From NCBI GenBank assembly GCA_020725385.1, contig DYFC01000001.1, positions 1 to 27,014 of the forward strand: DNA of 27,014 nucleotides. The letters run 5' to 3'. The position numbers and the translations under genes are program-made. Every line of letters starts with the position of its first letter. Within the stretch, counting starts at the first letter, position 1. Shown piece after piece: positions 8-24,323 of this stretch. Under the pieces are notes generated by a model that searched no databases, was not told where the DNA came from, and saw nothing but the letters and a program-made list of their open reading frames with translations. The stretch is from Nitrospira japonica (GTDB lineage Bacteria; Nitrospirota; Thermodesulfovibrionia; Thermodesulfovibrionales; SM23-35).

Positions 8-673
8 ATGCACGATGCACAGCCGGTGATAAAGGATGTCAGGGAGCGTTTTGAGAGAGAAGAGACAATAGAATTATTAAAGAAGGTTGGAGATAATATC
101 CCGTTCTTCCTTAGTATGATGGATATGCTGAATGTTGCCAAAGGCATGATGAAAGACATGATGCCTGTAGTTGGTAAAATTTCTCATGATGTTGTTCCTA
201 CCATTAATATGTTACGTGAGAAATTTGAGAATGAGGAAACTCTCACGATGATTGAGAAACTCGGAGATGATGTTCCAGTCCTTATACTTTTGCTGGAACT
301 GTTAGGCAAACCTGAGATGACAGCACTTCTCATAAGGGTGAATGAAAATCTTAAACTTTTGCAAAAGGTATCCGAGTTGCTTCCTGTATTTGATAATCTA
401 ATGGGATTTCTCCAGCAATTGAATCAGAATGGCACGCTAAATACTATAACAAACATGTTATTGAATAAGGATGTTGCAGCATTAGTGAAAGGTGTAGATA
501 AGTGCCTTGAGACTACAATGGCTGATATAAAAGCAAGTCCAGTTAAACCAGGTATAAAAACGATTATTTCTGCAATAATGAATTCTGAAGTGCAAAAAAC
601 ACTAATCATACTTACAAAATTTGCCAAATATTTTCCAAGAAGTTTTGAACAAGCAATGCAGGAGACTAAATAG
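8..673 (+). CDS. DUF1641-like helical protein, probably 5'-truncated by the window edge
   Basis: Frame is open to the window start. Amphipathic helical sequence with an internal repeat (PVIKDVRERFEREETIELLKKVGDNIP / PTINMLREKFENEETLTMIEKLGDDVP). The C-terminal KPGIKTIISAIMNSEVQKTL resembles the DUF1641 motif. Confidence 0.55.
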   Translation: MHDAQPVIKDVRERFEREETIELLKKVGDNIPFFLSMMDMLNVAKGMMKDMMPVVGKISHDVVPTINMLREKFENEETLTMIEKLGDDVPVLILLLELLGKPEMTALLIRVNENLKLLQKVSELLPVFDNLMGFLQQLNQNGTLNTITNMLLNKDVAALVKGVDKCLETTMADIKASPVKPGIKTIISAIMNSEVQKTLIILTKFAKYFPRSFEQAMQETK

Positions 674-708: not shown

Positions 709-1143
709 TTATTTTTTTATAGTTCTCGAAAGAAAAACGATACAATCCTTACAGGTTAAATTATTATTTCTTTGACATCTCATTTGATTCAATTCCCAAC
801 AAGGCTTGAGTCTATCTAAATAACCTGAACATGAATTTCTTTTTTCCTTGGTACAGTCTGTCATTTCCCAGCAGGGTAAATAATTAAGAAGTTTTTTAAT
901 TCCCTCGATACTTATTTTTTTCTTATGTAATAATTCTCTTAAACATTGTAACCAGCGAATATCATTTTCAGAATAAAATCTATTTTTGTTTCTTCTTGCT
1001 GGTTTTATTAAGTTATGCTTTTCATAAAGCCTTAAAGTTTGTTTTGTTGTGCCAATAAGTTCTGCAACAATACCAATAGGATATAAAGGCATATCTTTTT
1101 TGTCTTTCCAAAAATTTTTTTTACTTATTTTTGCCTGTTTCAT
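709..1143 (-). CDS. MerR-family (HspR-like) regulator with a Cys-rich C-terminal CW domain
   Basis: HTH YPIGIVAELIGTTKQTLRLYEKHNLIKPARRNKNRFYSENDI; tail CWEMTDC..CSGY..PCWE..C..CKDC. Confidence 0.85.
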   Translation of the reverse strand: MKQAKISKKNFWKDKKDMPLYPIGIVAELIGTTKQTLRLYEKHNLIKPARRNKNRFYSENDIRWLQCLRELLHKKKISIEGIKKLLNYLPCWEMTDCTKEKRNSCSGYLDRLKPCWELNQMRCQRNNNLTCKDCIVFLSRTIKK

Positions 1144-1683: not shown

Positions 1684-2940
1684 ATGGCTGAAATAAATAA
1701 CTGGGATTGGGATACAAAAGAAAAATATATCGCCGATATCAATGAATGGAAGAAAAAATTTAAAGCAGTTCGTGAAATTTCCATAAGTGATGACGGTGAA
1801 AGAATAGCTGCCGTTGTTGAAAATAATGATGGTAGATTTACAATATGTAATAACGGCGGAGTATGGGAGGAAACCTTCGAAAGATTATGGAAACTTAAAT
1901 TCAATAACGAAAATCAACTTTATTCGCTTGCTTATAGAGATTATGAGTGGGGAGTTGGTATAGATAATGGAATGTGGGAGGAAAAATTTGATTCTATCTG
2001 GAATCTTACTTTAACACCTGATGGAAAAGGAGCTGTTGCGAACTGTAAGAAAGATGGAACTTATGGAGTTGTACTTAATGGGAATGTTTGGGAAAACAGG
2101 TTTGCTGATGCAAGAAATCTTGCTATAAGTCCTGATGGTACTAAGACAGCATCAAATGTTCAAACAAAATCTATTAAGGTTGCAGATATTTTTGCTTTTG
2201 CTGAAGGAATATATTCAATTGCAATTGATGGTAATCCTTGGGATAGAAATTTCATGAGTATATGGAGTTTTACTTTTAGTTCTGATAGTACTAAAGTAGC
2301 TGCAGAAGTAATGCTTGACGTAGGAGCTTTTACAATAGCCGTTGATGGGAAACCATGGGACCAAGTATTTGGGTGTGTGTGGGAACCTATTTTTAAGCCA
2401 GGTACTCATGATGTTGTTGCACCAGTAAAGCGAGGCGCAACATGGACACTGGCAATGAATGGGAAGCCCATATGGGGGGAATTTTTCCAAATCTGGGGAC
2501 AGAAATATAGTCCTGATGGACAAAAACTTGCTGCAACAGTTGCAACAGAGTTTACCAAATGGACAATAGCAGTTGAAAGTAATGCTTGGAGCAGGACATG
2601 GAATGAAACAGTGCTTGCCCCTCATTTCAGTCCTGATAGCAGAAGAGTTGCTGCAATAGTTAAGGAAGATAATCGCTGGACAATAGCAGTTGATGGGATA
2701 CCATGGATTGAAACTTTTGATATGATTTGGGACCCTGTTTTTAGTCCAAATGGCGATAAGGTAATAGCAAAGGCTGAGAAAAATAAAAAATATTATATAG
2801 TTGTTGATGGGAAAATAGGTAAAAATGGTTACGATGCTCTTTGGGACCCTGTTTTCGGTCCTGATGGTAAAAAGGTTCTTATTAAATGTATTGAAAATGG
2901 TAAATATTATCGTCGTATTGTTCCTGTAAATGAAATTTAA
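1684..2940 (+). CDS. tmcD: TmcD-like Trp-rich beta-propeller (WD40/PD40-type repeat) subunit of the Tmc complex
   Basis: 418 aa with repeated W-x-P-x-FSPDG / W-TIAVDG-x-PW units, directly upstream of tmcC- and tmcB-like genes. Confidence 0.8.
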   Translation: MAEINNWDWDTKEKYIADINEWKKKFKAVREISISDDGERIAAVVENNDGRFTICNNGGVWEETFERLWKLKFNNENQLYSLAYRDYEWGVGIDNGMWEEKFDSIWNLTLTPDGKGAVANCKKDGTYGVVLNGNVWENRFADARNLAISPDGTKTASNVQTKSIKVADIFAFAEGIYSIAIDGNPWDRNFMSIWSFTFSSDSTKVAAEVMLDVGAFTIAVDGKPWDQVFGCVWEPIFKPGTHDVVAPVKRGATWTLAMNGKPIWGEFFQIWGQKYSPDGQKLAATVATEFTKWTIAVESNAWSRTWNETVLAPHFSPDSRRVAAIVKEDNRWTIAVDGIPWIETFDMIWDPVFSPNGDKVIAKAEKNKKYYIVVDGKIGKNGYDALWDPVFGPDGKKVLIKCIENGKYYRRIVPVNEI

Positions 2941-2956
2941 GAATGGGAGTTAAAAT

Positions 2957-3631
2957 ATGATTGATTTTATAAAAGACCCTTCATTTTATAATCTCGTTAG
3001 AGGACCGTTAGTATGGATAGCCTTTATATGCTTCATTGGAGGAAGTATTTATAAGATAAGGCAAATCATTATTCTTGCTAAGAAAGAAAAGGTAATCTTG
3101 CCATTTCTCGATCTTAAGGCTAGTATTCGTTCACTTATTCATTGGATATTGCCATTTGGCAGTACGAACTGGAGAAAGAGATGGGTAATGACATTTATGA
3201 CTTTTATTTTTCACATATGTTTGGTTTTTACTCCGATCTTTTTACTTTCTCATAATGTGTTGTGGAATGAATCATGGGGGATAACATGGTGGACATTACC
3301 AGAAACCTTAGCTGACATAATGACTATCGCAGTTATAGTAACCTCTTTATTTTTCCTATTCAGAAGGCTTTTTGCCCCAGAAGTAAGATTTGTTACTTTT
3401 TCATCTGATTATCTGATTCTTTTTATCGCTCTAATGCCTTTTTTGACAGGATTTTTTGCATATCATCAACTGCTATTACCTTATAAAGCTATGGTAATTT
3501 TCCATATGATTTTTGGTTGTATAATGTTAATCGCAATTCCTTTTACACGTTTAGCTCATATGTTCTATTTTTTCCTTACAAGAGCATATTTAGGTTCAGA
3601 GGTTGCATTCAGAAAAGGTACAGATTGGTAG
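2957..3631 (+). CDS. tmcC: TmcC/HmcE-family membrane cytochrome b (NarI-like)
   Basis: About five hydrophobic segments. His motifs FIFHICL, LSHN, IFHM and IPFTRLAHMF are typical of NarI/DsrM/TmcC. Confidence 0.8.
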   Translation: MIDFIKDPSFYNLVRGPLVWIAFICFIGGSIYKIRQIIILAKKEKVILPFLDLKASIRSLIHWILPFGSTNWRKRWVMTFMTFIFHICLVFTPIFLLSHNVLWNESWGITWWTLPETLADIMTIAVIVTSLFFLFRRLFAPEVRFVTFSSDYLILFIALMPFLTGFFAYHQLLLPYKAMVIFHMIFGCIMLIAIPFTRLAHMFYFFLTRAYLGSEVAFRKGTDW

Positions 3632-3665
3632 CATTTAATTACATTAATACGTAGGAGGATTTTTG

Positions 3666-4982
3666 ATGCTTAAGTATGAGAGGAAGGAAATTGCAGACCT
3701 CGGCATTGATGAATCAGTAAAAAGATTAACGCCTGAAAAGATAACAAAAACTATTAATAATGTTCTTAAAGGTACAGGTGCAAGACTTAAAGCATATCTC
3801 GATACATGTATACATTGTGGACTATGCGCAGAAGCCTGTCACTATTATCTTTCACATGGTAAAAATCCAACATATTCTCCTGTTGCCAAAGTTAAGCTAA
3901 CTTTGTGGGAAATGGTAAAGAACAAAGGGAATGTCAGCCCTGATTTTATAGCTCAATGTTCAAGGATTGCATATACTGAATGTAACCGATGCCGTAGATG
4001 CAGTCTTTATTGTCCTTATGGTATTGATATATGGTATTTAATTGCATTAGTTCGACGTATTTGCCTTCTTTTAAAAGTTGTTCCACAGTATGAAATGGAT
4101 ACTAATTATAGTCATGCTGCTACTTTAAACATGATGTGGCTTAAACAAGATGATTGGATAGATACAGTTCAATGGCAGGAAGAAGAAGTCAGAATGGAAT
4201 ATAAGACTGCGAGGATTCCATTTGATAAAGAAGGCGCAGAAGTAATGTATACTCCAATAGCTCCTGAACCTAAATTCAAACCACAACTTCTCGCTGCAAC
4301 CGCTAAAATTATGCATGCTGCTGGTGTTGATTGGACAATGCCATCATTTGATGGGTGGGATAATAGTGACATTTCAATGCATGTTGCTGATTTTGAGACA
4401 ATGTCAAGGGTTGAAAGGAAACATTTTGAAGCTGCATTTAAATTAAAAGTCAAGCGAATTGTGATGTGTGAGTGAGGGCATGCATTTAATGCCGCGAGTT
4501 ACGTGGCTCCCCAATGGTTAGGATGGAAACAAGCACCAATTGAGTATATACACGCTACAAAATTTTATTATGAACTTATACGGGATGGCAGACTCAAAAT
4601 AATAAGAAAGATAAAAGAGCCTGTTACTTATCAAGAACCTTGTAATATAGTAAGGAATGCTGGCTACAAAGAAATTTTACAGTATATATTTCATGCGATA
4701 TGTGAAAATGTGATTGATCCACATCCAAATGGAATGCACAATTACTGTTGTATTGCTGGTGGTGGAGTAATAAACTGTGGCCCACCATGGAAAATGGTCA
4801 GAATGGAAGGAAATAGAGCAAAAGCAGAACAACTCAGAGAAACAGGCGCCCATATTGTTATTACTCCATGTCACAATTGTCACAGTGGAATTGAGGATCT
4901 TATAAAACATTACAAATTGGATATGCATGCTGTTTTTTATTCAGATTTACTTTTACAATGTATCGAGTTACCGAAAGAATAG
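3666..4982 (+). CDS. tmcB: TmcB/HmcF-family cytoplasmic Fe-S (CCG-domain, HdrD/DsrK-like) protein; predicted selenoprotein with in-frame TGA at 4473-4475
   Basis: ORFs 3663..4475 and 4503..4982 are in the same frame; read-through gives IVMCE-U-GHAFNAASYVAPQW (438 aa from ATG 3666, RBS GGAGG at 3654-3658). Motifs CIHCGLCAEAC, CNRCRRCSLYCP, YQEPCN, NYCC, PCHNC. Confidence 0.85.
4476..4513 (+). promoter_or_regulatory. Putative bacterial SECIS element
   Basis: Stem GCCGCG (4491-4496) / CGTGGC (4502-4507) with loop AGUUA starting 21 nt after the UGA. Possible lower pairing of GGG (4476-4478) with the CCCC run (4509-4512). Confidence 0.7.
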
Positions 4983-5016
4983 AATTATACAAAAATAAAT
5001 CGGGAAGGGATAAGAA

Positions 5017-6708
5017 ATGAATAGAAAATTAATTTACTTTTTAGTGAGTATAGCTTATCTCATTTTAATTGCGATCGGTTTGTACGGTGTGTATACTGTT
5101 GAAGCTACACTTCATGTTAAGGAAACTCCTGTTGCCGAACCTCAAAACAAAATTTCAATCGCTCACACTGAAATTTTTGGAAAACTTGAACGTCCTCAAG
5201 TTATTTTTGATCACGGCAAACATGTCGAGGCTATGAAAGCCGAGGGATGTGCTGCATGCCATCCGGTTAAGAAAGATAATGTCATTTCATTTGACTTTCC
5301 CAAAAAAGTTAAGGGTAAAAGCAAAACAGATGCAATGAACGCTTTCCATGATGAATGCATTGAATGCCATAAGAAACAAAGTAGCGAAAATAAAAAATCA
5401 GGGCCTGTTACCTGCGCCGATTGTCATAATAAAAAGAACGATAAGATCAAAATCAAATATCCTATTGCAGAATTTGATTTTTCCTATCATGATAAACATG
5501 TAAGAAAGCTAAAGGAAAAAATAGGCAAGGATGACTGTGGACAATGTCATCACTTCTACAGCTTGGAAGAGAAAAAATTAGTTTATAAAGAAGGTACCGA
5601 AGAATCCTGTTATTATTGCCATGATCTTAACAAAAAGAGAGGTCCCGAGCTGACTGCTATAACGAAAGTATCTGCAGAAAAAGGACTTACAATAAAGAAT
5701 GCATCACATCAGCAATGCTTAAACTGTCATTTGAAATATCAGAAACAGGGTGATAAAGAGACAGGACCAACTGAATGTATCAAGTGCCATACAGGGAAAT
5801 ATAAAACTGTTGAAGAGCTTTCAAAGGTTTCCAGACCGGACAGGAAACAAAAGGACAGAATATTTATATCCGTTGAAAATTCAAAAATGAAAGGCGTTCC
5901 TTTTGATCATAAAAATCATGAAATGACTTCCAAAACCTGTCGTTCATGTCATCATGAAACTTTAAAAGCGTGCAAAGAATGCCACACACTCACAGGCAAG
6001 CCTGAGGGCAATGGAATTAATCTTGCTAATGCATATCATCAGGTATTTTCAGAGCATAGCTGTACAGGATGTCATAATAAAAATAAGCAGACAAAAGAGT
6101 GTGCGGGCTGTCATTATGCAATTCCCGTAATGGATGTAGATTCACTTAATCCTAAAAAAGATACCTGTAATACTTGCCATAGCGGACAGAAAGAAAAATA
6201 TTCTGCTGCACCTATTCCAATGAGTTCGGTTGAAAAAGTAAAGAAAGAGATTGAGATAAAAGTTCTCGAGAACGAATATGAACCTTCAAAATTCCCTCAT
6301 CTTGAGGTAATTAAGAAACTCGTAAAAATATCCAATGATAACAAAATGGCTACTTATTTCCATAGAAATGCTAAAACACTTTGCGAAGGCTGTCATCATA
6401 GAAGTAATATAAGCGCAGAGGCCCAGCAGGATACACCGCCAAACTGCAAAAATTGCCACATGGTCGCCTACGACAGAAAAAATCCTAATAAAACAAGACT
6501 GCTCTCAGCATATCACAGACAGTGCGTAGGATGTCATGATCAAATGCAGATAAAGAAGGGAAGCAGTTTTAATTTCGAGGAAGGCGATAGATGCGGGGCA
6601 TGCCACAAGAAGAAAGTTGGCGGACCGGCAGAAATAATTACTATGAAAAATGACCGTGTTGTAAAACAGAATACGACAAATATTATTAATGTCTGGCACC
6701 CTGAATAA
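5017..6708 (+). CDS. hmcA: High-molecular-weight 16-heme cytochrome c (HmcA)
   Basis: 16 CxxCH motifs counted, cytochrome c3-type FDH..H distal-ligand motifs, and an N-terminal hydrophobic signal/anchor. Confidence 0.92.
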   Translation: MNRKLIYFLVSIAYLILIAIGLYGVYTVEATLHVKETPVAEPQNKISIAHTEIFGKLERPQVIFDHGKHVEAMKAEGCAACHPVKKDNVISFDFPKKVKGKSKTDAMNAFHDECIECHKKQSSENKKSGPVTCADCHNKKNDKIKIKYPIAEFDFSYHDKHVRKLKEKIGKDDCGQCHHFYSLEEKKLVYKEGTEESCYYCHDLNKKRGPELTAITKVSAEKGLTIKNASHQQCLNCHLKYQKQGDKETGPTECIKCHTGKYKTVEELSKVSRPDRKQKDRIFISVENSKMKGVPFDHKNHEMTSKTCRSCHHETLKACKECHTLTGKPEGNGINLANAYHQVFSEHSCTGCHNKNKQTKECAGCHYAIPVMDVDSLNPKKDTCNTCHSGQKEKYSAAPIPMSSVEKVKKEIEIKVLENEYEPSKFPHLEVIKKLVKISNDNKMATYFHRNAKTLCEGCHHRSNISAEAQQDTPPNCKNCHMVAYDRKNPNKTRLLSAYHRQCVGCHDQMQIKKGSSFNFEEGDRCGACHKKKVGGPAEIITMKNDRVVKQNTTNIINVWHPE

Positions 6709-6757
6709 AGGTAAATTGGTTTAAGGAAAAAGGTTAATTAAATAGAGAGGAGCAAGG

Positions 6758-7672
6758 ATGGACAGAAGGAATTTTCTAAAAATATTTGGATCAGGCGTTG
6801 CTACAGCGGCAACAGGAAACCTTCTTAACCCGGCAAAAACTAACGCCAGTGAGGATAATCAGGCAACAGAATTTTATGGAATTCTGGTTGATACAACAAG
6901 ATGTATCGGATGCAGACGTTGTGAAAAAGCATGTGCTGAAGCTAATGGGCTTCCGGTTCCTGATATTGACGAATTAACAAACAAAAGTGTTCTTGAAAAG
7001 ATGAGAAGGACATCCGATACACAATATACAATAATTAACCGCTACGATACTGAAAAAGGCCCAATTTACGTGCCAAAGAGATGTATGCATTGCAATCAAC
7101 CCGGTTGTGCTGCTGCCTGTCTTGTTAAAGCCATGAGAAAACGTCCATCCGGACATGTTACATGGGATGCTAATTGCATTGGCTGCAGATTATGCATGGT
7201 TTCATGTCCTTTTGATATACCAAAATTCGAATATACTAAAGCAATGCCAAGAATACAAAAGTGCAATCTTTGTTATGACAGATATAAAAAAGGAGGCATC
7301 CCTGCCTGTGTGGAAGTCTGTCCAACACAGGTGCTTGTTTTTGGGACAAGAAGACAGATACTGGAAGAAGGAAAAAGAAGAATAGCCGCAGACCCGGATA
7401 AATATGTAAATCATATATATGGTGAATATGAAGTAGGTGGAACATCTCATTTATATCTATCATCTGTTCCTTTTGAACAAATTGGGTTTAGAAAAGATCT
7501 TGGAACAGTTCCTTATCCGGAATATAGTACGGGCTTTCTTTTTGCAGTTCCATTTATATTTGTGCTCTGGCCTATTGCAATGCTTGGAATTAACCGTGCT
7601 ACTAAAAAAGATGATGAAAGCGGGCACGGCGAAAACCATGAAAATAAAGAACATGAAAAAGGGAAACATTAG
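6758..7672 (+). CDS. hmcB: HmcB periplasmic 4Fe-4S protein (NrfC/HybA-like)
   Basis: Tat signal DRRNFLK, Fe-S motifs CIGCRRCEKAC, CMHCNQPGCAAAC, CIGCRLCMVSCP, KCNLC..PACVEVCP, and a C-terminal TM helix. Confidence 0.9.
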   Translation: MDRRNFLKIFGSGVATAATGNLLNPAKTNASEDNQATEFYGILVDTTRCIGCRRCEKACAEANGLPVPDIDELTNKSVLEKMRRTSDTQYTIINRYDTEKGPIYVPKRCMHCNQPGCAAACLVKAMRKRPSGHVTWDANCIGCRLCMVSCPFDIPKFEYTKAMPRIQKCNLCYDRYKKGGIPACVEVCPTQVLVFGTRRQILEEGKRRIAADPDKYVNHIYGEYEVGGTSHLYLSSVPFEQIGFRKDLGTVPYPEYSTGFLFAVPFIFVLWPIAMLGINRATKKDDESGHGENHENKEHEKGKH

Positions 7673-7693
7673 TAGAAAGGAAGAGGATAAAGC

Positions 7694-8962
7694 ATGGCAG
7701 GAGAAAAATTAGATACTGTAGCAATAGTTGAAGAAAAAGATGATAGCCCTAAAATAAAAAATCTTTCTGATTTCTGGACATTCCTTAAAAAAGAGTTAAA
7801 ACCAAGAGGGAATATTGCAACTCCATTCAACTTAATCTCACTTCCAATAATGATTCTTGGTTATATCTTTATTGTTTACAGACTTGCTGCGGGGCTTGGA
7901 AAACCAATTACAAATCTTAATCAGGATTTCCCCTGGGGGCTTTGGATAGGTTTCGATGTTGTTACAGGAGTTGCTTTTGCCGGTGGTGCATATGTTTTGT
8001 GCTTTGTTGTATATATTTTGCGTGCAGAAAAGTATCATGCCATTATAAGAGCAACGGTTCTTAATGGTTTTCTTGCTTATCTCTTTTATGCCGGCGCTAT
8101 TGTGCTTGATATTGGTCGTTGGTGGAACATATATAATCCAATGATTGGAAATTCATTTGGCGTAAATGCTGTTATGTTCCTTGTTGCATGGCATTTTTTC
8201 CTTTATATGCTTGCGGAACTTGTTGAATTCTCTCCAACCATTGCTGAATGGCTCGGGATGAAAAGACTAAGAAAAATTCTCGGTTCGCTTACATTGGGTG
8301 CAGTTGTATTTGGTATCTGTCTTTCGACACTCCATCAGTCAGGACTTGCAGCCCTTATGATAATGGCAAAGAATAAGATTCATCCTTTATGGTACACGGA
8401 ATTCATACCTATTCTTTATTTTGTTTCCAGTATTTTTGCAGGTCTTTCGATGGTTATATTTGAAGGTTCTATAAGCCACAAGGTTTTTGGCGACCAGATA
8501 GACGAGGCTCACCATAAACATTACGATGATATTCTTGTCGGACTGGCAAGAATATGTTCGGTGGCAATGTTTGGATATTTCTTCCTTAAAATAATACTAC
8601 TTGTTCATGAGCACGCAGTGCCTTATCTTAATTCACCCATGGGCTACTGGTTCTTACTTGAAATAATAGGATTTGTACTTGTGCCATGTTTTATGTTTGC
8701 TCACGGTGCGCAACAAAGAAATACATCAACAATAAAGTTTGCTGCTGTTATAACAATGATCGGGATTATAATTAATAGGTTGAATTACACATTTATAGCA
8801 TATAACTGGTATGTGCCTTTGAGTCAGAAATATTGGCCTGCTCCGATGGAGTTGATAATTACAGCATCTATTATTCTGACAGAAATCTGGGCATTCAGAT
8901 GGATAGTAAACAGAATGCCGGTATTAAAAGAACCACCTGCATGGGCAAGAAAACTTCATTAG
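7694..8962 (+). CDS. hmcC: HmcC integral membrane subunit (NrfD/HybB family)
   Basis: PWGLWIGFDVVTGVAFAGG, LSTLHQSGL and IHPLWY motifs with many TM helices. Confidence 0.9.
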   Translation: MAGEKLDTVAIVEEKDDSPKIKNLSDFWTFLKKELKPRGNIATPFNLISLPIMILGYIFIVYRLAAGLGKPITNLNQDFPWGLWIGFDVVTGVAFAGGAYVLCFVVYILRAEKYHAIIRATVLNGFLAYLFYAGAIVLDIGRWWNIYNPMIGNSFGVNAVMFLVAWHFFLYMLAELVEFSPTIAEWLGMKRLRKILGSLTLGAVVFGICLSTLHQSGLAALMIMAKNKIHPLWYTEFIPILYFVSSIFAGLSMVIFEGSISHKVFGDQIDEAHHKHYDDILVGLARICSVAMFGYFFLKIILLVHEHAVPYLNSPMGYWFLLEIIGFVLVPCFMFAHGAQQRNTSTIKFAAVITMIGIIINRLNYTFIAYNWYVPLSQKYWPAPMELIITASIILTEIWAFRWIVNRMPVLKEPPAWARKLH

Positions 8963-8988
8963 TGAAAATAAAAACGGAGGTTTAAATA

Positions 8989-9111
8989 ATGGAAGAACTC
9001 TTCACTTATACAGATATATTCGCAACAAAAGGAGTTGAATACCTTATTATTATTGCCTTTTTCATTCTTATAGTTGCATTCTGGGGTCTTGTCAATATGA
9101 GACCACAGTAA
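8989..9111 (+). CDS. hmcD: HmcD-like 40-aa single-TM protein (absent from the ORF track)
   Basis: RBS GGAGG at 8976-8980. Translation MEELFTYTDIFATKGVEYLIIIAFFILIVAFWGLVNMRPQ. Lies after hmcC and before the terminator. Confidence 0.75.
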   Translation: MEELFTYTDIFATKGVEYLIIIAFFILIVAFWGLVNMRPQ

Positions 9112-9144
9112 ATAAAATTTAATTAAAATTTACTAAATTAATTT

Positions 9145-9180
9145 AAAGCCGGTTTTGATAACTAAACCGGTTTTTATTTA
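9145..9180 (+). terminator. Intrinsic terminator of the tmc/hmc operon
   Basis: AAAGCCGGTTT..AAACCGGTTTT stem followed by a T-rich tail. Confidence 0.75.
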
Positions 9181-9366
9181 TTTAAAAACAATAAAAATAT
9201 AAAAAAGTTGTTTGTGATTTTTAATTATCAATTTTTAAAAGTAAATATATACAATTACTCAATCATAAATAGAGTTCTTAACTTAATTTAAGCATTATTA
9301 GAAATTTGATTACAAAAAATTTTTTTAAAAAACTTTTAATTATTAAATAAATATAAGGTTTTTAGA

Positions 9367-9648
9367 ATGAAAATTGTAAATTGTTGGGAATTTAAAAAAT
9401 GTGGAAGAGAACCGGGTGGTGATAAGGTCAATGAATTAGGAGTTTGTCCTGCTGCAATAGATGATAAATACAATGGTCTGAATAAAGGTAAAAATGCGGG
9501 ACGGGCATGTTGGTTAATGTCAGGAACTTTATGTGATATTAAAGTTAAAGGTAAAAGACATAAAAGACAATGGGAATGTACACAATGCTTTTTTTTTCAG
9601 ATTGTTAAAGAAGAAGAAGGAGACAATTTTGTTTATCACATTGGATGA
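9367..9648 (+). CDS. Stand-alone two-CW-domain Cys-rich protein
   Basis: NCWEFKKCGREPGG..CPAA..GRACW..GTLC..CTQC..VKEEEG pattern. Confidence 0.75.
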   Translation: MKIVNCWEFKKCGREPGGDKVNELGVCPAAIDDKYNGLNKGKNAGRACWLMSGTLCDIKVKGKRHKRQWECTQCFFFQIVKEEEGDNFVYHIG

Positions 9649-10493: not shown

Positions 10494-10976
10494 TTAGAAT
10501 TCTCTCAATCTACCATTGCCGTTGCCGCCATTTTTACCATTTCCTTTATTGCTCTTTGATAGGAAGACAACACAATCTTCGCAACCTTCATTAGATTTGC
10601 GATTGCAAAACATTTTATTCAATTCCCAGCATGGTTTAGTTCTGTCAATGTAAGCTTGACATTCATTTTTTCTACCAGCAGGGCAGTCTGTTATTTCATA
10701 ACATGGCGCATATTCAAGAAGCTTCTTAATGCCTTCAATGCTAAATTTTTTGTCATGAATTAAATCCCTAAGGCACATTAGCCATCTCACATCATTTTCT
10801 GAATAAAATCTGTTTTTATTTTTTCGTGATGGCTTTATTAAACCATGTTTTTCATAGAGCCTTAAAGTTTGATTTGTTGTCCCGACTAAGTCAGCTACTA
10901 CACCAATTGTGTAAAGTGGTAAATTGCTTTTTTCTGTTCCGATAACCATTTCAAGTTTTTTCTTTGTTTTCCCCAT
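10494..10976 (-). CDS. MerR-family regulator with a Cys-rich CW tail, paralog of 709..1143
   Basis: YTIGVVADLVGTTNQTLRLYEKHGLIKPSRKNKNRFYSENDVRWL; tail CYEITDC..CQAY..PCWE..C..CEDC. Confidence 0.85.
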   Translation of the reverse strand: MGKTKKKLEMVIGTEKSNLPLYTIGVVADLVGTTNQTLRLYEKHGLIKPSRKNKNRFYSENDVRWLMCLRDLIHDKKFSIEGIKKLLEYAPCYEITDCPAGRKNECQAYIDRTKPCWELNKMFCNRKSNEGCEDCVVFLSKSNKGNGKNGGNGNGRLREF

Positions 10977-20212: not shown

Positions 20213-21781
20213 ATGAGTTTAAGCAAACCTAATGCAAGTGCTGCAACTGTGACAACAACAAGAGTCTCGCCATCACCATTTTCCGGGTTATGTGTCAACT
20301 GTGTTGATGGATGCCCCGGATATTGTGAGGTGGGGAGGTCGGCTTTAAGAGGAAGGGAAATAATTTATCCCCAACCATTTGGAAAAGTAATTTCTGGCTC
20401 TGAAAAAGATTATCCTGTTGACTTTTCTCACTTTAATATTCATGGAACATGCGTAGGAGCTGTTGGTGCTGATGCTGATTCAGATAAGGCGACATTCCCA
20501 AACGTAAACGTTGAAACAGAAATAAACGGAGCTAATGGAAACAAAATAAAAATGAAGGTACCTGTTTTTACAGGCGCGCTTGGTTCAACAGAAGTTGCAC
20601 GTGTTAACTGGGAAGGAACAGCGATTGGTGCTGCGATTAGCGGTTCAATATTGGTATGTGGAGAAAACGTATGTGGAATGGATCCGAAAGCTGAAATTAA
20701 GAATGGAAAAATTGTCAATTCTCCGGAACTTGCAAGAAGAGTGAAGATTTACAAGGATTGGTATGATGGCTATGGCACAATGCTTGTTCAACTCAATGTA
20801 GAGGATACAAGATTAGGGGTTGCTGAATATGCAGTTGAAAAACTTGGTGTAGAAGGTATAGAGCTTAAATGGGGACAGGGTGCAAAATGTATAGGCGGAG
20901 AGGTAAAACTTCCAACTTTGGACAGAGCATTACAATTGAAATCAAGAGGATATATTGTTTTGCCAGACCCGGAAAATAAAACAGTCCAGGAAGCGCATAA
21001 ACTCGGAGGCATTGCAGAATTTGAACGTCATTCACGCCTTGGGATGGTAGATGAAGAATCTTTTATGAAGGAAGTAGAAAGAGTAAGAAAGATAGGAGCT
21101 AAATATGTAACATTGAAAACCGGAGCTTACAGACCTGTTGATCTTGCAAGAGCAGTTAAATATGCATCTCAAGCTAAAATTGACCTTCTTACTGTTGATG
21201 GCGCAGGTGGTGGTACAGGCATGAGCCCGTGGCGTATGATGAATGAATGGGGAATTCCTACGGTTTATCTTGAGAGTCTTCTTTATAAATATCTTAAAAG
21301 ATTACAGGAAAAGGGTGAATATATACCTCCTGTTGCAATAGCAGGTGGTATTACGCTGGAAGACCATATATTTAAGGCTATAGCTCTTGGCGCTCCTTTT
21401 GTAAAAGCAATATGTATGGGACGCTCTACTCTTACAGCAGGGATGGTAGGTAAGACACAGGGCAAATTTATAGAAGAAGCGTATGGTAAAGGTAAAGAGT
21501 ATGAAGAAGCCCTTCTTAGAACTTTCAATGGAGCTGCTTCCTTAAAAGAAAAATACGGGAAAGATTTTAAAAAGATACCTCCTTCTGCAATTGGAATATG
21601 GACATACTATGATAGACTTTCAGTCGGTTTAAAACAGTTAATGGCCGGGGCAAGAAAGTTTGCTCTTCAATATATTGACAGAAATGACATTATGTCATTG
21701 ACACGTGAGGCAGCAGATGTATCTGGAATAACATATCTTATGGATGCAGATATGAAAGAAGTTGAAAATATTTTAGGATAA
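20213..21781 (+). CDS. FMN-binding glutamate synthase family protein (stand-alone synthase domain, GltB2-like)
   Basis: IELKWGQGAKCIGGE, DGAGGGTG, WGIPT, AGG and FKAIALGA motifs; N-terminal CVNCVDGCPGYC; no amidotransferase domain. Confidence 0.88.
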   Translation: MSLSKPNASAATVTTTRVSPSPFSGLCVNCVDGCPGYCEVGRSALRGREIIYPQPFGKVISGSEKDYPVDFSHFNIHGTCVGAVGADADSDKATFPNVNVETEINGANGNKIKMKVPVFTGALGSTEVARVNWEGTAIGAAISGSILVCGENVCGMDPKAEIKNGKIVNSPELARRVKIYKDWYDGYGTMLVQLNVEDTRLGVAEYAVEKLGVEGIELKWGQGAKCIGGEVKLPTLDRALQLKSRGYIVLPDPENKTVQEAHKLGGIAEFERHSRLGMVDEESFMKEVERVRKIGAKYVTLKTGAYRPVDLARAVKYASQAKIDLLTVDGAGGGTGMSPWRMMNEWGIPTVYLESLLYKYLKRLQEKGEYIPPVAIAGGITLEDHIFKAIALGAPFVKAICMGRSTLTAGMVGKTQGKFIEEAYGKGKEYEEALLRTFNGAASLKEKYGKDFKKIPPSAIGIWTYYDRLSVGLKQLMAGARKFALQYIDRNDIMSLTREAADVSGITYLMDADMKEVENILG

Positions 21782-22231: not shown

Positions 22232-22702
22232 ATGGAAGAGGAAATTTTGGAAGATATACTTTCAGGTTATAGGGGCAATCGCAGTGAGATTGTCCCTATT
22301 CTTCAAGAGGTTCAAGACAATCTTGGCTATTTGCCTGAGAAAGCAATGACAGAAATAGCAGAATTTATAGGAGTGCCCGAAAGTCATGTTTATTCAGTTG
22401 CTTCTTTTTATGCACAGTTCAGATTACTTCCATTGGGAAGAAAAAGAATTGCTGTATGTAGAGGAACCGCATGTCATATCAGAGGTGCTCCACAGATTCT
22501 AAAAACAATTGAGCAAAAGATAAATTTAAAAGAGGGTGAGACATCTGAAGATCTTGAATACACCCTTGAAACCGTAGCATGTATAGGTTGTTGCGCACTT
22601 GCACCTTGCATAAGAATTAATAAAGATGTGTCAGGTGAAATGACGCCTGAAAAGGCAGAATTGTTATTCTCTGAAAATAATAAAGAGGCAGAAAATGAAT
22701 GA
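22232..22702 (+). CDS. NuoE/HydC-like [2Fe-2S] subunit
   Basis: VASFYAQF, CRGTACH, CIGCCALAP. Confidence 0.9.
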   Translation: MEEEILEDILSGYRGNRSEIVPILQEVQDNLGYLPEKAMTEIAEFIGVPESHVYSVASFYAQFRLLPLGRKRIAVCRGTACHIRGAPQILKTIEQKINLKEGETSEDLEYTLETVACIGCCALAPCIRINKDVSGEMTPEKAELLFSENNKEAENE

Positions 22703-24311
22703 CAAAAAAGTCTTGCTACATGTTTGTCAGGGAACAGGTTGCATATCAGGAGGTGCAGATAAAGTTTTTAATCAACTTAATGAATTATTAGATAATTCAG
22801 ACTACAATCATAATGTTATTGTCAAAAAAACAGGTTGTCATGGTTTCTGCCAGCAAGGACCTCTTATTGTTGTTGAACCTCATGGATTCTTTTATACGAA
22901 AGTAAAAGAGGATGATATCGGAGAAATTTTAAAATCACTTGAACCTGATGGTAATCCTGTAAAAAGACTTTTTTATCATGAACCATTAACCAATCAACCT
23001 ATACCAAAATATAATGATATACCTTTTTATAAACTTCAAACCAGAGAAATTTTAAGACATTGTGGAGACATTGATCCCGAAGATATACAGGATTATATAT
23101 CAATAGGCGGTTATAAAGCTTTAAATAAAGCCTTATTACAGAGTCCTGAAAATATAATTAATGAAGTAAAAAGATCAGGACTCAGGGGACTTGGTGGAGC
23201 CGGTTTTCCTGCAGGAAGAAAATGGGAATTATGCAGAAATGCTAAGGGGGACATTAAATATGTTATCTGCAATGCTGATGAAGGAGACCCCGGCGCTTTT
23301 CAGGACCGTTCTGTAATGGAGGGGAATCCTCATTCAGTTATTGAAGGAATGATTATTGCCGGATACGCTGTTGGAGCTCAAAAAGGATTTATTTATGTAA
23401 GGGCAGAATATCCACTCGCTGTTTTAAGGTTGAAAATTGCGATAGAACAGGCACGTGAAGAAGGATTTTTAGGAGAAAATATCCTTGATACCAACTTTAG
23501 TTTTGATATAGAAATCTTTCAGGGTGCAGGCGCATTTGTATGCGGTGAATCTACTGCTTTAGTACGCTCTATTGAGGGCAAAAGAGGTTGGCCAAAACCA
23601 ATGCCCCGTGCACATACTACAGAAGAAGGATTATGGAATAAGCCAACTCTGCTTAATAATGTTAAGACGTTCGCAAATATTCCCTTAATAATCAATAATG
23701 GGGCTAAATGGTTTTCTTCGAAAGGTACTGAAAAATGTAAAGGCACTGCTGTTTTCTCATTAACAGGAAAAGTCGTAAATTGTGGTTTGATCGAGGTTCC
23801 AATGGGTATTACTTTAAGAAAAATTATATATGAAATCGGAGGAGGGATTGCAGGCGGTAAAAAATTGAAAGCAGTCCAGACAGGAGGACCATCAGGAGGT
23901 TGTATTCCAGCGGATTTGCTTGATATGCCGGTAGATTTTGATTCTCTTAAAGAAGCAGGAACAATTATGGGTTCCGGAGGGATGGTAATAATGGATGAAG
24001 ATACCTGTATGGTTGATGTTGCGCGTTATTTTCTTGATTTTACGCAGAGAGAATCTTGTGGACAGTGTATTCCATGCAGGCTTGGAACAGTTCAGATGTT
24101 TAAAATTCTAGATGATATAACAAAAGGTAAAGGAAGAAAAGGAGATATTGATTTATTGATTGAACTTAGCGAGTCAATTATGAAAGGTTCAATATGCGGA
24201 CTTGGCAAAACTGCTCCAAACCCTGTTTTAACAACAATACGTTATTTCAGGAATGAGTATGAGGCTCATATAAATGATAAAAAATGTCCTGCAAAAATTT
24301 GTGCGATGTAA
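22695..24311 (+). CDS. NuoF/HydB-like FMN/NAD(P)-binding diaphorase subunit
   Basis: N-terminal CQGTGC..GCHGFC domain, [43 protein letters not shown]. Ends at CPAKICAM without a C-terminal 2x[4Fe-4S] domain. Confidence 0.9.
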
Positions 24312-24323
24312 TGAACTAAAGAA

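What the first reader, a model, noticed from the sequence alone, without database searches (positions are those of the whole stretch)
3666..4982. Selenocysteine-recoded TmcB: UGA at a conserved Fe-S ligand plus SECIS
Seen: two ORFs in one frame are separated only by TGA 4473-4475, reading M-C-E-[UGA]-G-H-A-F. The downstream 'ORF' has no convincing RBS and starts at a GTG inside the hairpin. The GC-rich hairpin GCCGCG-AGUUA-CGUGGC, in otherwise AT-rich coding sequence, has its loop 21 nt after the UGA with GU near the loop start. Known: TmcB/HmcF/DsrK CCG domains carry E-C-G-H, whose Cys ligates the non-cubane-type Fe-S site of heterodisulfide-reductase-like proteins, and bacterial SECIS elements have this geometry. 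Inference: a full-length 438-aa selenoprotein with a C-x-U motif at the presumed thiol/disulfide (DsrC-type) active site, which pipelines would call a pseudogene. Sec forms of CCG-domain proteins may already be predicted elsewhere; I cannot check that.
Basis: partly seen in the sequence, partly recalled or inferred. Interest (0 to 1): 0.92.

Follow-up and report, generated by a model that had tools for sequence, protein, structure and literature searches.

The report
Recoded UGA in a TmcB gene
An in-frame UGA stop codon in a respiratory iron-sulfur protein gene of a sulfite-reducing bacterium is a conserved selenocysteine-type recoding site of an already known selenoprotein family, with the oddity that this genome shows no gene for making the selenium donor.

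Summary
ATG 3666 to TAG 4982 is one 438-codon frame broken only by TGA 4473-4475, followed by the hairpin 4491-4507. It is not a nonsense mutation. Of 42 full-length TmcB-like loci from related genomes, 29 carry TGA at this exact column (E-U-G-H) and 13 carry TGC/TGT. The hairpin is kept in the TGA forms (93% of cells paired) and not in the Cys forms (46%). Codons after the TGA are under purifying selection. Contigs of three public runs show the same TGA.

The protein is a TmcB/HmcF-type catalytic subunit in a conserved TmcD-TmcC-TmcB-HmcA-HmcB-HmcC cluster. The recoded residue is the Cys of the T/GECGH motif, a leftover of the lost second noncubane cluster and a proposed catalytic thiol. It is not a plain cluster ligand.

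This kind is already in print: 'Fe-S oxidoreductase (GlpC)-like' selenoproteins with a 'UGH' motif. I rate it a new member of a known kind.

The caveat matters. The genome has selA, two selB, tRNA-Sec(UCA) and two UGA-containing fdhA genes, but no selD, and the syntenic selD site is empty here and in a sister species. A Sec-like tRNA-Cys(GCA) sits beside the second selB, so Cys insertion at this UGA cannot be excluded.

The parts
1684..2940 (+). TmcD-family subunit gene, first gene of the cluster
   Evidence: NCBIfam NF045725 TmcD_fam 506 bits, above the cutoff of 440, full length.
2957..3631 (+). TmcC-family membrane anchor (cytochrome b type, NarI-like)
   Evidence: NF045723 TmcC 273.9 bits, above the cutoff of 240. 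HmcE scores 187.6. Pfam Nitrate_red_gam.
3653..3658 (+). Shine-Dalgarno AGGAGG, 7 nt before the ATG of tmcB
   Evidence: Read directly and checked.
3666..4982 (+). TmcB/HmcF-type cytoplasmic Fe-S catalytic subunit, 438 codons with one in-frame UGA
   Evidence: NF045724 TmcB 662.5 bits over residues 8-434 (cutoff 735, not reached). HmcF 346, DsrK 187. Pfam Fer4_8 and CCG. The model folds like EtfD and HdrB. pN/pS is about 0.06 before and 0.10 after the UGA against the G009 ortholog.
4473..4475 (+). Recoded UGA, codon 270, in the E-U-G-H motif
   Evidence: TGA in the same column in 29 of 42 homologous loci and TGC/TGT in 13. Identical in contigs of 3 public runs from 2 studies.
4491..4507 (+). 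SECIS-type hairpin: 6-bp stem GCCGCG/CGUGGC, loop AGUUA
   Evidence: MFE fold. 93.0% of 114 cells paired in 20 TGA loci against 46.3% of 54 cells in 10 Cys loci. The closing pair is G-C here, A-U in most loci and U-A in L146/L147.
5017..6708 (+). HmcA-like multihaem (16-haem type) periplasmic cytochrome c
   Evidence: NF045713 HmcA 510 bits, above the cutoff of 400. TmcA model 107.8, below the cutoff of 114.
6758..7672 (+). HmcB-like periplasmic Fe-S subunit
   Evidence: NF045715 HmcB 344 bits (cutoff 420, not reached). Pfam Fer4_11.
7694..8962 (+). HmcC-like NrfD-family membrane subunit
   Evidence: NF045714 HmcC 388 bits (cutoff 550, not reached). Pfam NrfD.
9367..9648 (+). Small two-CW-domain protein at the end of the cluster
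   Evidence: NF045718 two_CW_domain 99.2 bits, above the cutoff of 35. A 93-aa ORF sits at the same place in G009.

Best explanation
TGA 4473-4475 is a programmed, SECIS-dependent recoding site inside one functional gene.

What the protein is: the cytoplasmic catalytic Fe-S subunit (TmcB/HmcF type, related to DsrK and HdrD) of a transmembrane redox complex encoded by TmcD-TmcC-TmcB-HmcA-HmcB-HmcC. It should carry two cubane [4Fe-4S] clusters (Cys48/51/54/58 and Cys106/109/112/116). It should also carry one noncubane [4Fe-4S] cluster on the C-terminal CCG motif (Cys326, 361, 362, 402, 405).

What the recoded residue is: residue 270 sits in E-U-G-H. This is the one thiol left from the lost first CCG motif. 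It lies two residues from a His that ligates the noncubane cluster in the homolog EtfD.

Inferred mechanism: a SelB-type factor bound to the hairpin 15 nt downstream delivers a Sec-type tRNA to the UGA. The selenol (or thiol) then acts next to the single noncubane cluster as the nucleophile or resolving group in reducing a protein disulfide or trisulfide, DsrC being the obvious candidate.

In the family at large the residue is selenocysteine, so this is a member of the known 'Fe-S oxidoreductase (GlpC)-like, UGH' selenoprotein family.

Shown: one gene, a conserved UGA/Cys column, a conserved hairpin, selA, selB and tRNA-Sec in the genome. Inferred: that Sec itself, and not Cys, is inserted in this organism; the chemistry; the substrate.
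For: 1. Same-column TGA or Cys. Among 42 full-length TmcB-like loci (own plus 41 from the 61 genomes), 29 have TGA and 13 have TGC/TGT at the column of residue 270. The TGA forms lie in 25 of the 37 genomes of the same taxonomic family.

2. The tree of the 42 needs at least 6-7 Sec/Cys switches, and all three main clades hold TGA forms.

3. Hairpin. 93.0% of cells are paired in 20 TGA loci against 46.3% in 10 Cys loci, and 21-54% when the partners are slid. Mean MFE of the 38 nt is -11.75 against -5.41 kcal/mol (the sequences are kin and not independent). G32 is nearly invariant and T34 invariant in the loop. The closing pair is G-C here, A-U in 16 loci, and U-A in L146/L147. The two differences from the G009 hairpin are both synonymous and compensatory, while synonymous sites of the gene are saturated (pS 0.85-1.0).

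4. The gene is translated through the UGA. The HMM match runs over residues 8-434. The 9 codons between TGA and the GTG show 4 synonymous and 0 non-synonymous differences. pN is 0.10 against pS of about 1.0 downstream. G271, H272 and A273 are invariant in 15 homologs.

5. Machinery in the genome: selA at 628 bits, two selB above cutoff, and tRNA-Sec with UCA anticodon, G73 and an 8-bp acceptor stem. Two fdhA genes carry UGA at the canonical site with hairpins.

6. The TGA and hairpin are identical in contigs of runs X3, X4 and X6, from 2 studies.

7. Literature. Fe-S oxidoreductase (GlpC) selenoproteins are listed in passages of PMC1794560. The motif 'UGH' is listed in passages of PMC13188914. 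The Cys of T/GECGH in DsrK, HmcF and TmcB is proposed as catalytic in passages of 10.1101/2023.08.03.551783.

8. Fold and alignment. EtfD and HdrB are the top structural matches. U270 aligns with EtfD Cys581 and H272 with His583. The ligand roles of those residues come from passages of PMC13083937.
Against: 1. selD was not found in this genome. The best TIGR00476 hit scores 69 bits against a cutoff of 125 and is ThiL. tblastn with a same-genus SelD at E up to 10 gives only that ThiL locus and one weak hit on C10 that I did not identify.

2. In same-genus genomes G002 and G003 selD lies next to a 93-aa gene, YedF and a desulfurase. The same place in G000 is a roughly 700-nt AT-rich stretch with no ORF of 90 aa or more. 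Sister species G005 is collinear there at 81% identity and also lacks selD. 35 of the 37 genomes searched do have selD.

3. The assembly is 96.6% complete and has no contig under 5155 bases. In two relatives the stored loci that hold selD are only 2.0-2.6 kb long (loci L135, L136). An unbinned selD is therefore possible.

4. A Sec-like tRNA-Cys (GCA anticodon, U73, 8-bp acceptor stem) lies next to the second selB, so Cys could be inserted at this UGA.

5. The hairpin alone is not thermodynamically unusual (z = -0.04). In the pair count, 94 of 500 column shuffles reach the observed pairing. Only one pair shows a two-sided change within alignment A1.

6. The TmcB equivalog cutoff is not reached (662.5 below 735).

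7. No expression or protein data. The substrate of any Tmc/Hmc complex is not established.
Confidence: 0.7

Rival explanations
1. The UGA is recoded through the SECIS, but in this organism the inserted residue is cysteine. selD has been lost in the lineage of G000 and G005. The Sec-like tRNA-Cys(GCA) (selC*/tRNAReC type) with its neighbouring second SelB, or Cys-tRNA-Sec made in some other way, would deliver Cys to UGA-270 and to the fdhA UGAs.
For: - selD was not found. Its syntenic site is empty in both G000 and G005, two species only 81% identical there.
- Both still keep an intact selA (628 and 631 bits), selB, tRNA-Sec and a UGA in fdhA. UGA decoding is therefore still under selection.
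- The tRNA at G000:C15:23008-23099 has a GCA anticodon, U73, an 8-bp acceptor stem and a long variable arm. It lies 50 nt from a full-length SelB paralog that is 58% identical to the other SelB.
- Passages of PMC13582414 state that tRNAReC with UCA or GCA anticodon decodes UGA as Cys with a SECIS. They also state that in such genomes UGA may be read as Cys.
- Passages of PMC5389517 describe selC* with selB*.
Against: - The genome is an incomplete assembly (96.6% complete, 71 contigs), so selD could be unbinned.
- selA and the canonical tRNA-Sec(UCA) are intact, and they have no known use without selenophosphate.
- Second Sec-like tRNA hits occur in 19 of the 37 genomes searched, nearly all of which have selD. 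The Cys-tRNA system therefore does not by itself indicate loss of Sec.
- PMC5389517 reports a complete selABCD set in all selC*-bearing genomes it examined.
Confidence: 0.2
2. A nonsense mutation: the gene is a recent pseudogene and the hairpin is a coincidence.
For: The single-sequence fold is not better than shuffles. selD was not found.
Against: - The same TGA is present in 29 of 42 loci across 25 genomes, with the hairpin kept.
- The sequence downstream is under purifying selection against an ortholog whose synonymous sites are saturated.
- The HMM match is full length.
Confidence: 0.02
3. A split gene: two separate polypeptides (269 aa and 159 aa from GTG 4503) that assemble afterwards.
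For: Table 11 gives two ORFs.
Against: - There is no ribosome-binding site before GTG 4503.
- The 9 codons between the TGA and the GTG encode the invariant G-H-A of the motif. They show 0 non-synonymous and 4 synonymous changes.
- In the Cys forms the frame is continuous.
Confidence: 0.02

Closest known systems
Fe-S oxidoreductase (GlpC, COG0247)-like selenoprotein family (Zhang and Gladyshev; listed in PMC1794560 and PMC13188914)
   Same: Both are CCG-domain Fe-S proteins of anaerobic sulfate reducers and syntrophs. The 2026 review lists the Sec motif as 'UGH' with one Sec, and here it is E-U-G-H. There are Cys homologs at the same site.
   Different: [quoted passage not shown] No paper in the library joins selenocysteine to TmcB, HmcF or DsrK. 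I could not compare sequences with the cited representative, and supplements were closed.
TmcB of the TmcABCD complex and HmcF of HmcABCDEF (Desulfovibrio vulgaris)
   Same: Best NCBIfam match, over the full length. Two ferredoxin motifs, one complete C-terminal CCG motif and the T/GECGH motif are present. The neighbours are TmcC and TmcD.
   Different: Sec codon in place of Cys. The score is below the TmcB equivalog cutoff. The gene order is D-C-B followed by HmcA-, HmcB- and HmcC-like genes instead of a tetrahaem TmcA. It is therefore a Tmc/Hmc hybrid cluster, conserved in G009.
DsrK of DsrMKJOP
   Same: Same architecture, with a single noncubane cluster plus the conserved Cys of GECGH that is proposed to act in DsrC-trisulfide reduction.
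   Different: Only about 27% identical. The genome has its own DsrK at C53, without a stop. None of the DsrK-like matches (about 24-32% identity, roughly 500-580-residue frames) listed shows a stop.
HdrB/HdrD heterodisulfide reductase and mycobacterial EtfD (PDB 5ODC, 9OJN)
   Same: Same fold. Residue 270 aligns with the first Cys of the CxxC of the first CCG motif, and His272 with the His583 ligand of EtfD.
   Different: Those proteins keep the other Cys of the first motif and bind a second cluster there. This protein has no other Cys between residues 134 and 267.
selC* tRNA-Cys / tRNAReC with selB* (Mukai 2016; Vargas-Rodriguez 2018, the latter recalled and seen only as cited)
   Same: A Sec-like tRNA with GCA anticodon and U73 next to a second selB.
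   Different: In print these genomes have the complete selABCD set. Here selD was not found.

Membership tests
GlpC-like (Fe-S oxidoreductase) selenoprotein family | In-frame UGA in a 'UGH' motif of a COG0247/CCG-domain protein, with Cys in homologs | tested here: met
   E-U-G-H at codon 270. 13 of 42 homologous loci have E-C-G-H. Pfam CCG domain. The motif is as listed.
GlpC-like (Fe-S oxidoreductase) selenoprotein family | Bacterial SECIS: a stem-loop shortly after the UGA with a conserved G in the apical loop (distance rule recalled from bSECISearch, not from a call) | tested here: met
   The hairpin starts 15 nt after the UGA. The loop G is nearly invariant, and 93% of cells are paired in the TGA forms. 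There is no Rfam model for it.
Sec-decoding trait of the host | selA, selB and tRNA-Sec(UCA) present | tested here: met
Sec-decoding trait of the host | selD (selenophosphate synthetase) present | tested here: not met
   No hit above cutoff, no tblastn hit, and the syntenic site is empty. The assembly is 96.6% complete, so absence is not proven.
Sec-decoding trait of the host | Selenium actually present in the protein | not testable with these tools
   Needs 75Se labelling or mass spectrometry.
TmcB (NCBIfam NF045724 equivalog) | Score at or above the curated cutoff of 735 bits | tested here: not met
   662.5 bits with U read as C, over the full length 8-434. It is the nearest family, not a certified equivalog.
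Tmc complex (TmcABCD) | TmcC and TmcD partners encoded alongside | tested here: met
   TmcC 273.9 above 240 and TmcD 506 above 440.
Tmc complex (TmcABCD) | Tetrahaem type II cytochrome c3 (TmcA) as the periplasmic subunit | tested here: not met
   The adjacent cytochrome is 563 aa and matches HmcA (510 bits). The TmcA model scores 107.8, below its cutoff of 114.
Hmc complex (HmcABCDEF) | HmcA, HmcB, HmcC, HmcE and HmcF equivalogs | tested here: inconclusive
   HmcA is above cutoff. HmcB (344 of 420), HmcC (388 of 550), HmcE (187.6 of 275) and HmcF (346 of 750) are below. HmcD was not looked for.
DsrK/HdrD-type CCG catalytic subunit | Five-Cys motif CXnCCGXnCXXC for a noncubane [4Fe-4S] cluster | tested here: met
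   C326, C361, C362, C402 and C405 are invariant in 15 homologs. HdrB/EtfD fold. The cluster itself cannot be tested here.
DsrK/HdrD-type CCG catalytic subunit | Thiol/disulfide (DsrC-trisulfide) reductase activity | not testable with these tools
   dsrA, dsrC and dsrK are in the genome.

The most novel reading that the evidence does not exclude
G000 and its sister species G005 have really lost selD, yet keep the SECIS hairpin, a UGA in tmcB (G000) and fdhA (both), selA, selB and tRNA-Sec. They decode these UGAs as cysteine through the Sec-like tRNA-Cys(GCA) and its own SelB paralog. That would be a natural lineage of 'ex-selenoproteins' kept alive by SECIS-directed Cys insertion. Until now this has been shown only with transplanted parts in E. 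coli.
Probability: 0.2. Interest if true: 0.75.

Novelty: new member of a known kind. Interest (0 to 1): 0.4.

Why it matters
1. Annotation. In this bacterial family most TmcB-type genes are UGA forms (29 of 42 loci), and standard gene callers cut them in two. Inventories of respiratory complexes of these sulfite reducers are therefore wrong.

2. Mechanism. How DsrK, HmcF and TmcB reduce a disulfide or trisulfide with only one noncubane cluster is an open question. Natural, repeated Sec/Cys exchange (at least 6-7 switches) falls exactly on the Cys of T/GECGH. This is independent evidence that the residue is a redox-active catalytic group, which is the usual meaning of a Sec/Cys pair. It marks the residue as the one to mutate.

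3. Decoding. The missing selD beside a Cys-charged Sec-like tRNA and a second SelB gives a concrete natural case in which to test whether SECIS-directed Cys insertion is used in nature.

Tried and rejected
- Rfam: no family at gathering score in the whole window. Only two chance-level hits at E about 8-9 around the hairpin.
- Single-sequence folding: the 66-nt stretch is not more stable than shuffles, so it cannot support the SECIS by itself.
- Column-shuffle control of the pair count: not significant (94 of 500), because the hairpin columns hardly vary.
- PDB by sequence: only EtfD 9OJN, for both the single sequence and the profile. HdrB appeared only by fold. The AlphaFold model is moderate (mean pLDDT 71.6) and gives no coordinates, so I could not measure the distance from residue 270 to the cluster cysteines.
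- A further TGA in a CCG protein frame at G000:C40 is an ordinary stop upstream of the start codon.
- The G005 TmcB-like hit is a truncated remnant ending near residue 238. It says nothing about the UGA there.
- Search for a selD of this organism in JGI metagenome contigs: 42 selD loci were found, none with flanks 85% or more identical to G000. This is no evidence either way.
- Expression: no RNA holder is listed among the public runs.
- Run X1 does not cover 4443-4490.
- Literature: selenocysteine with TmcB gave 2 papers, neither linking them. Selenocysteine with HmcF, DsrK or Tmc complex gave none linking them. Selenocysteine with 'CCG domain' gave 3 papers, none relevant in the one I opened. 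Supplementary tables that may list the GlpC-type selenoproteins by locus tag were closed. These are Table S3 of PMC2702500, Table S4 of PMC4287179, and the supplements of PMC1794560.
- Fragments of TmcB-like genes with E above 1e-150 were left out of the 42-locus count.
Full report
OBSERVATION

The frame from ATG 3666 (AGGAGG at 3653-3658) to TAG 4980-4982 has a single internal stop, TGA 4473-4475, in the context I-V-M-C-E-[UGA]-G-H-A-F. Table 11 splits it into a 270-aa ORF and a 159-aa ORF. The second ORF starts at GTG 4503, which lies in the 3' arm of a hairpin. The hairpin is GCCGCG (4491-4496), AGUUA, CGUGGC (4502-4507). It is in the MFE fold and is 71% G+C in a gene of 36.5% G+C.

On its own the 66-nt stretch folds no better than shuffles (z = -0.04), and Rfam has nothing. 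The sequence alone therefore cannot say that the hairpin is meaningful.

WHAT THE GENE IS

Read through, the 438-aa product matches NCBIfam TmcB over residues 8-434. The score is 662.5 bits, below the equivalog cutoff of 735. HmcF scores 346 and DsrK 187. Pfam finds a ferredoxin domain and one CCG domain at 320-409.

The neighbours are TmcD (1684-2940, above cutoff), TmcC (2957-3631, above cutoff) and a 563-aa HmcA-type cytochrome (5017-6708, above cutoff). After these come HmcB-like and HmcC-like genes (below cutoff) and a two-CW-domain protein. The same order stands in genome G009, whose ortholog is 88% identical. This is a Tmc/Hmc hybrid cluster, not a textbook TmcABCD.

The genome has dsrA, dsrC and a separate DsrK without stops.

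IS THE UGA PROGRAMMED?

I searched 61 genomes (own plus 60 relatives) with the read-through protein. I then examined every match with E of 1e-150 or better. That made 42 loci: 30 and 12 fetched.
- 29 have TGA exactly in the column of residue 270, reading E-U-G-H. 13 have TGC or TGT.
- The TGA forms lie in 25 of the 37 genomes of the same taxonomic family. The only TmcB-like genes outside that family are Cys forms.
- A maximum-likelihood tree of the 42 needs at least 6-7 Sec/Cys switches. All three main clades hold TGA forms.
- None of the DsrK-like matches listed shows a stop.

The hairpin goes with the TGA.
- In 20 TGA loci, 93.0% of 114 cells pair in the given register, against 21-54% with slid partners. 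In 10 Cys loci only 46.3% pair.
- Two of the 20 TGA loci (L025, L030) use a hairpin shifted by a few bases.
- The 38 nt after the codon fold at -11.75 kcal/mol on average in TGA forms and -5.41 in Cys forms. The sequences are kin, so the p-value overstates.
- The loop keeps G32 (nearly invariant) and T34 (invariant).

Covariation is thin because the stem hardly varies. The shuffle control is not significant (94 of 500), and only one pair in A1 changes on both sides. That pair is the window's own G-C against A-U in the others. L146 and L147 add U-A at the same pair.

Against G009, synonymous sites of the gene are saturated (pS 0.85-1.0). The hairpin differs only by two synonymous, mutually compensating changes.

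The sequence after the UGA is coding. pN is 0.10 downstream and 0.05 upstream. The nine codons between TGA and GTG show 4 synonymous and 0 non-synonymous differences. G271, H272 and A273 are invariant in 15 homologs.

Contigs of three public runs from two studies (X3, X4, X6) cover the TGA and the hairpin without a difference. X1 does not cover that spot.

Pseudogene and split-gene readings are therefore practically excluded.

WHERE THE RESIDUE SITS

The protein has no Cys between residues 134 and 267. The first CCG motif is therefore gone except for residue 270, plus Cys268 in this clade. The C-terminal motif is complete: C326, C361, C362, C402 and C405 are invariant.

HMMER aligns ...C-E-U-G-H-A-F... 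with ...V-T-C581-P-H583-C584-F... of mycobacterial EtfD, PDB 9OJN. In EtfD, Cys581 and Cys584 ligate the cluster of the first CCG domain, and His583 ligates the noncubane cluster of the second (passages of PMC13083937). The predicted structure (pLDDT 71.6) matches EtfD, LutA and HdrB best.

Barbosa et al. (passages of 10.1101/2023.08.03.551783) describe this very Cys. [quoted passage not shown] They consider it probably essential for disulfide reduction and possibly able to touch the cluster.

The 'C-x-U' motif is found in 2 of 42 loci. Repeated Sec/Cys exchange at this position is what one expects of a redox-active catalytic residue. That expectation is established knowledge about selenoproteins, not a call.

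IS IT NEW?

'Fe-S oxidoreductase (GlpC)' is a listed bacterial selenoprotein family, with members in Syntrophobacter, Desulfotalea and Desulfovibrio (passages of PMC1794560, and PMC1976440). The 2026 review gives its Sec motif as 'UGH' (passages of PMC13188914). The 2022 review lists it under COG0247. Desulfobacterium autotrophicum has a Sec-containing hdrD4 (passages of PMC2702500).

No paper in the library links selenocysteine to TmcB, HmcF or DsrK. Supplementary tables that might do so were closed. I therefore rate this a new member of a known kind. What is added is the assignment to Tmc/Hmc-type respiratory complexes and to the T/GECGH residue.

THE SEC MACHINERY AND THE CAVEAT

The genome (71 contigs, 96.6% complete) has these parts:
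- selA;
- two full-length selB genes, 58% identical to each other;
- a canonical tRNA-Sec with UCA anticodon and G73;
- two fdhA genes with UGA at the canonical ...AR-x-U-H... site and hairpins.

selD was not found. The best HMM hits are ThiL and HypE, and tblastn with a same-genus SelD finds nothing else of note. Of the 37 genomes searched, 35 have selD, itself with a UGA. The two without it are G000 and G005, of the same genus.

In G002, G003 and several metagenome contigs, selD lies directly beside a 93-aa gene, YedF and a cysteine desulfurase/Sec-lyase-like gene. Homology to G000 stops at C15:19063, and about 700 nt of AT-rich DNA with no ORF of 90 aa or more follows. G005 is collinear with G000 through this spot at 81% identity. 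G005 also keeps an intact selA, two selB, tRNA-Sec and a UGA in fdhA.

Next to the desulfurase in G000 lie the second selB and a Sec-like tRNA with GCA anticodon, U73 and an 8-bp acceptor stem. This is the selC*/tRNAReC kind with selB* (passages of PMC5389517). That kind is reported to read UGA as Cys in the presence of a SECIS (as cited in PMC13582414; the original paper is recalled, not seen).

Two readings remain. In the first, selD is on an unbinned piece. The assembly has no contig under 5155 bases, and the stored loci holding selD in two relatives are only about 2 kb long (loci L135, L136). In the second, selD is truly lost and the UGAs are now read as Cys. I put 0.7 on SECIS-directed insertion of Sec, 0.2 on SECIS-directed Cys, and the rest on other outcomes.

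VERDICT

The kind is already known. The local chemistry is better described as a catalytic selenol or thiol beside a single noncubane cluster.

Noticed in passing
G000:C15:18314-19030 (L150:2815-3530), outside the window: selD is missing from the assembly. In same-genus genomes selD stands beside the 93-aa gene, YedF and the desulfurase. Here that place holds about 700 nt of very AT-rich DNA with no ORF of 90 aa or more. Sister species G005 has the same empty junction at 81% identity.
   Followed up: yes
G000:C15:21101-23099 (L150:5602-7600), outside the window: A second full-length SelB (58% identical to the first) lies 50 nt from a Sec-like tRNA with GCA anticodon, U73 and an 8-bp acceptor stem (selC*/tRNAReC type). 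Second Sec-like tRNA hits above the Rfam cutoff occur in 19 of the 37 genomes searched.
   Followed up: partly
L022:2704-2706 (G009:C19, ortholog of the window's gene): The 88% identical ortholog has a second in-frame TGA at codon 402 (S-P-U-H-N-C-H). This is the first Cys of the CxxC of the complete CCG motif, a presumed ligand of the noncubane cluster. It is followed by its own 8-bp hairpin, which the window's gene (TGT there) lacks. It was seen in 1 of 42 loci.
   Followed up: partly
window 1684-9648: The gene order is TmcD, TmcC, TmcB, HmcA-like, HmcB-like, HmcC-like, two-CW protein. This is a Tmc/Hmc hybrid cluster without a tetrahaem TmcA, conserved in G009.
   Followed up: partly
L027 (G020) and L034 (G025): Some Cys forms keep a hairpin or a decayed copy of it at the SECIS place (L027 -14.5 kcal/mol; L034 has a partial stem). 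They look like recent Sec-to-Cys conversions.
   Followed up: no
window 22232-26924: NuoE-like and NuoF-like genes are followed by an 866-aa NuoG/FdhA-like fusion without an internal stop. This looks like a Cys-type or non-Sec soluble formate dehydrogenase-like module. The two UGA-containing fdhA genes are on contig C27.
   Followed up: no
window 709-1143 (-) and 10494-10976 (-): Two MerR-family regulator genes flank the cluster, the second being HspR-like.
   Followed up: no
window 8-673 and 20213-21781: ORFs of 221 and 522 aa have no NCBIfam match. The first also has no Pfam match.
   Followed up: no
L183 (G005:C86:10500-15500): A TmcB-like gene in G005 is cut off near residue 238 and runs into unrelated sequence. 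It is a gene remnant.
   Followed up: partly
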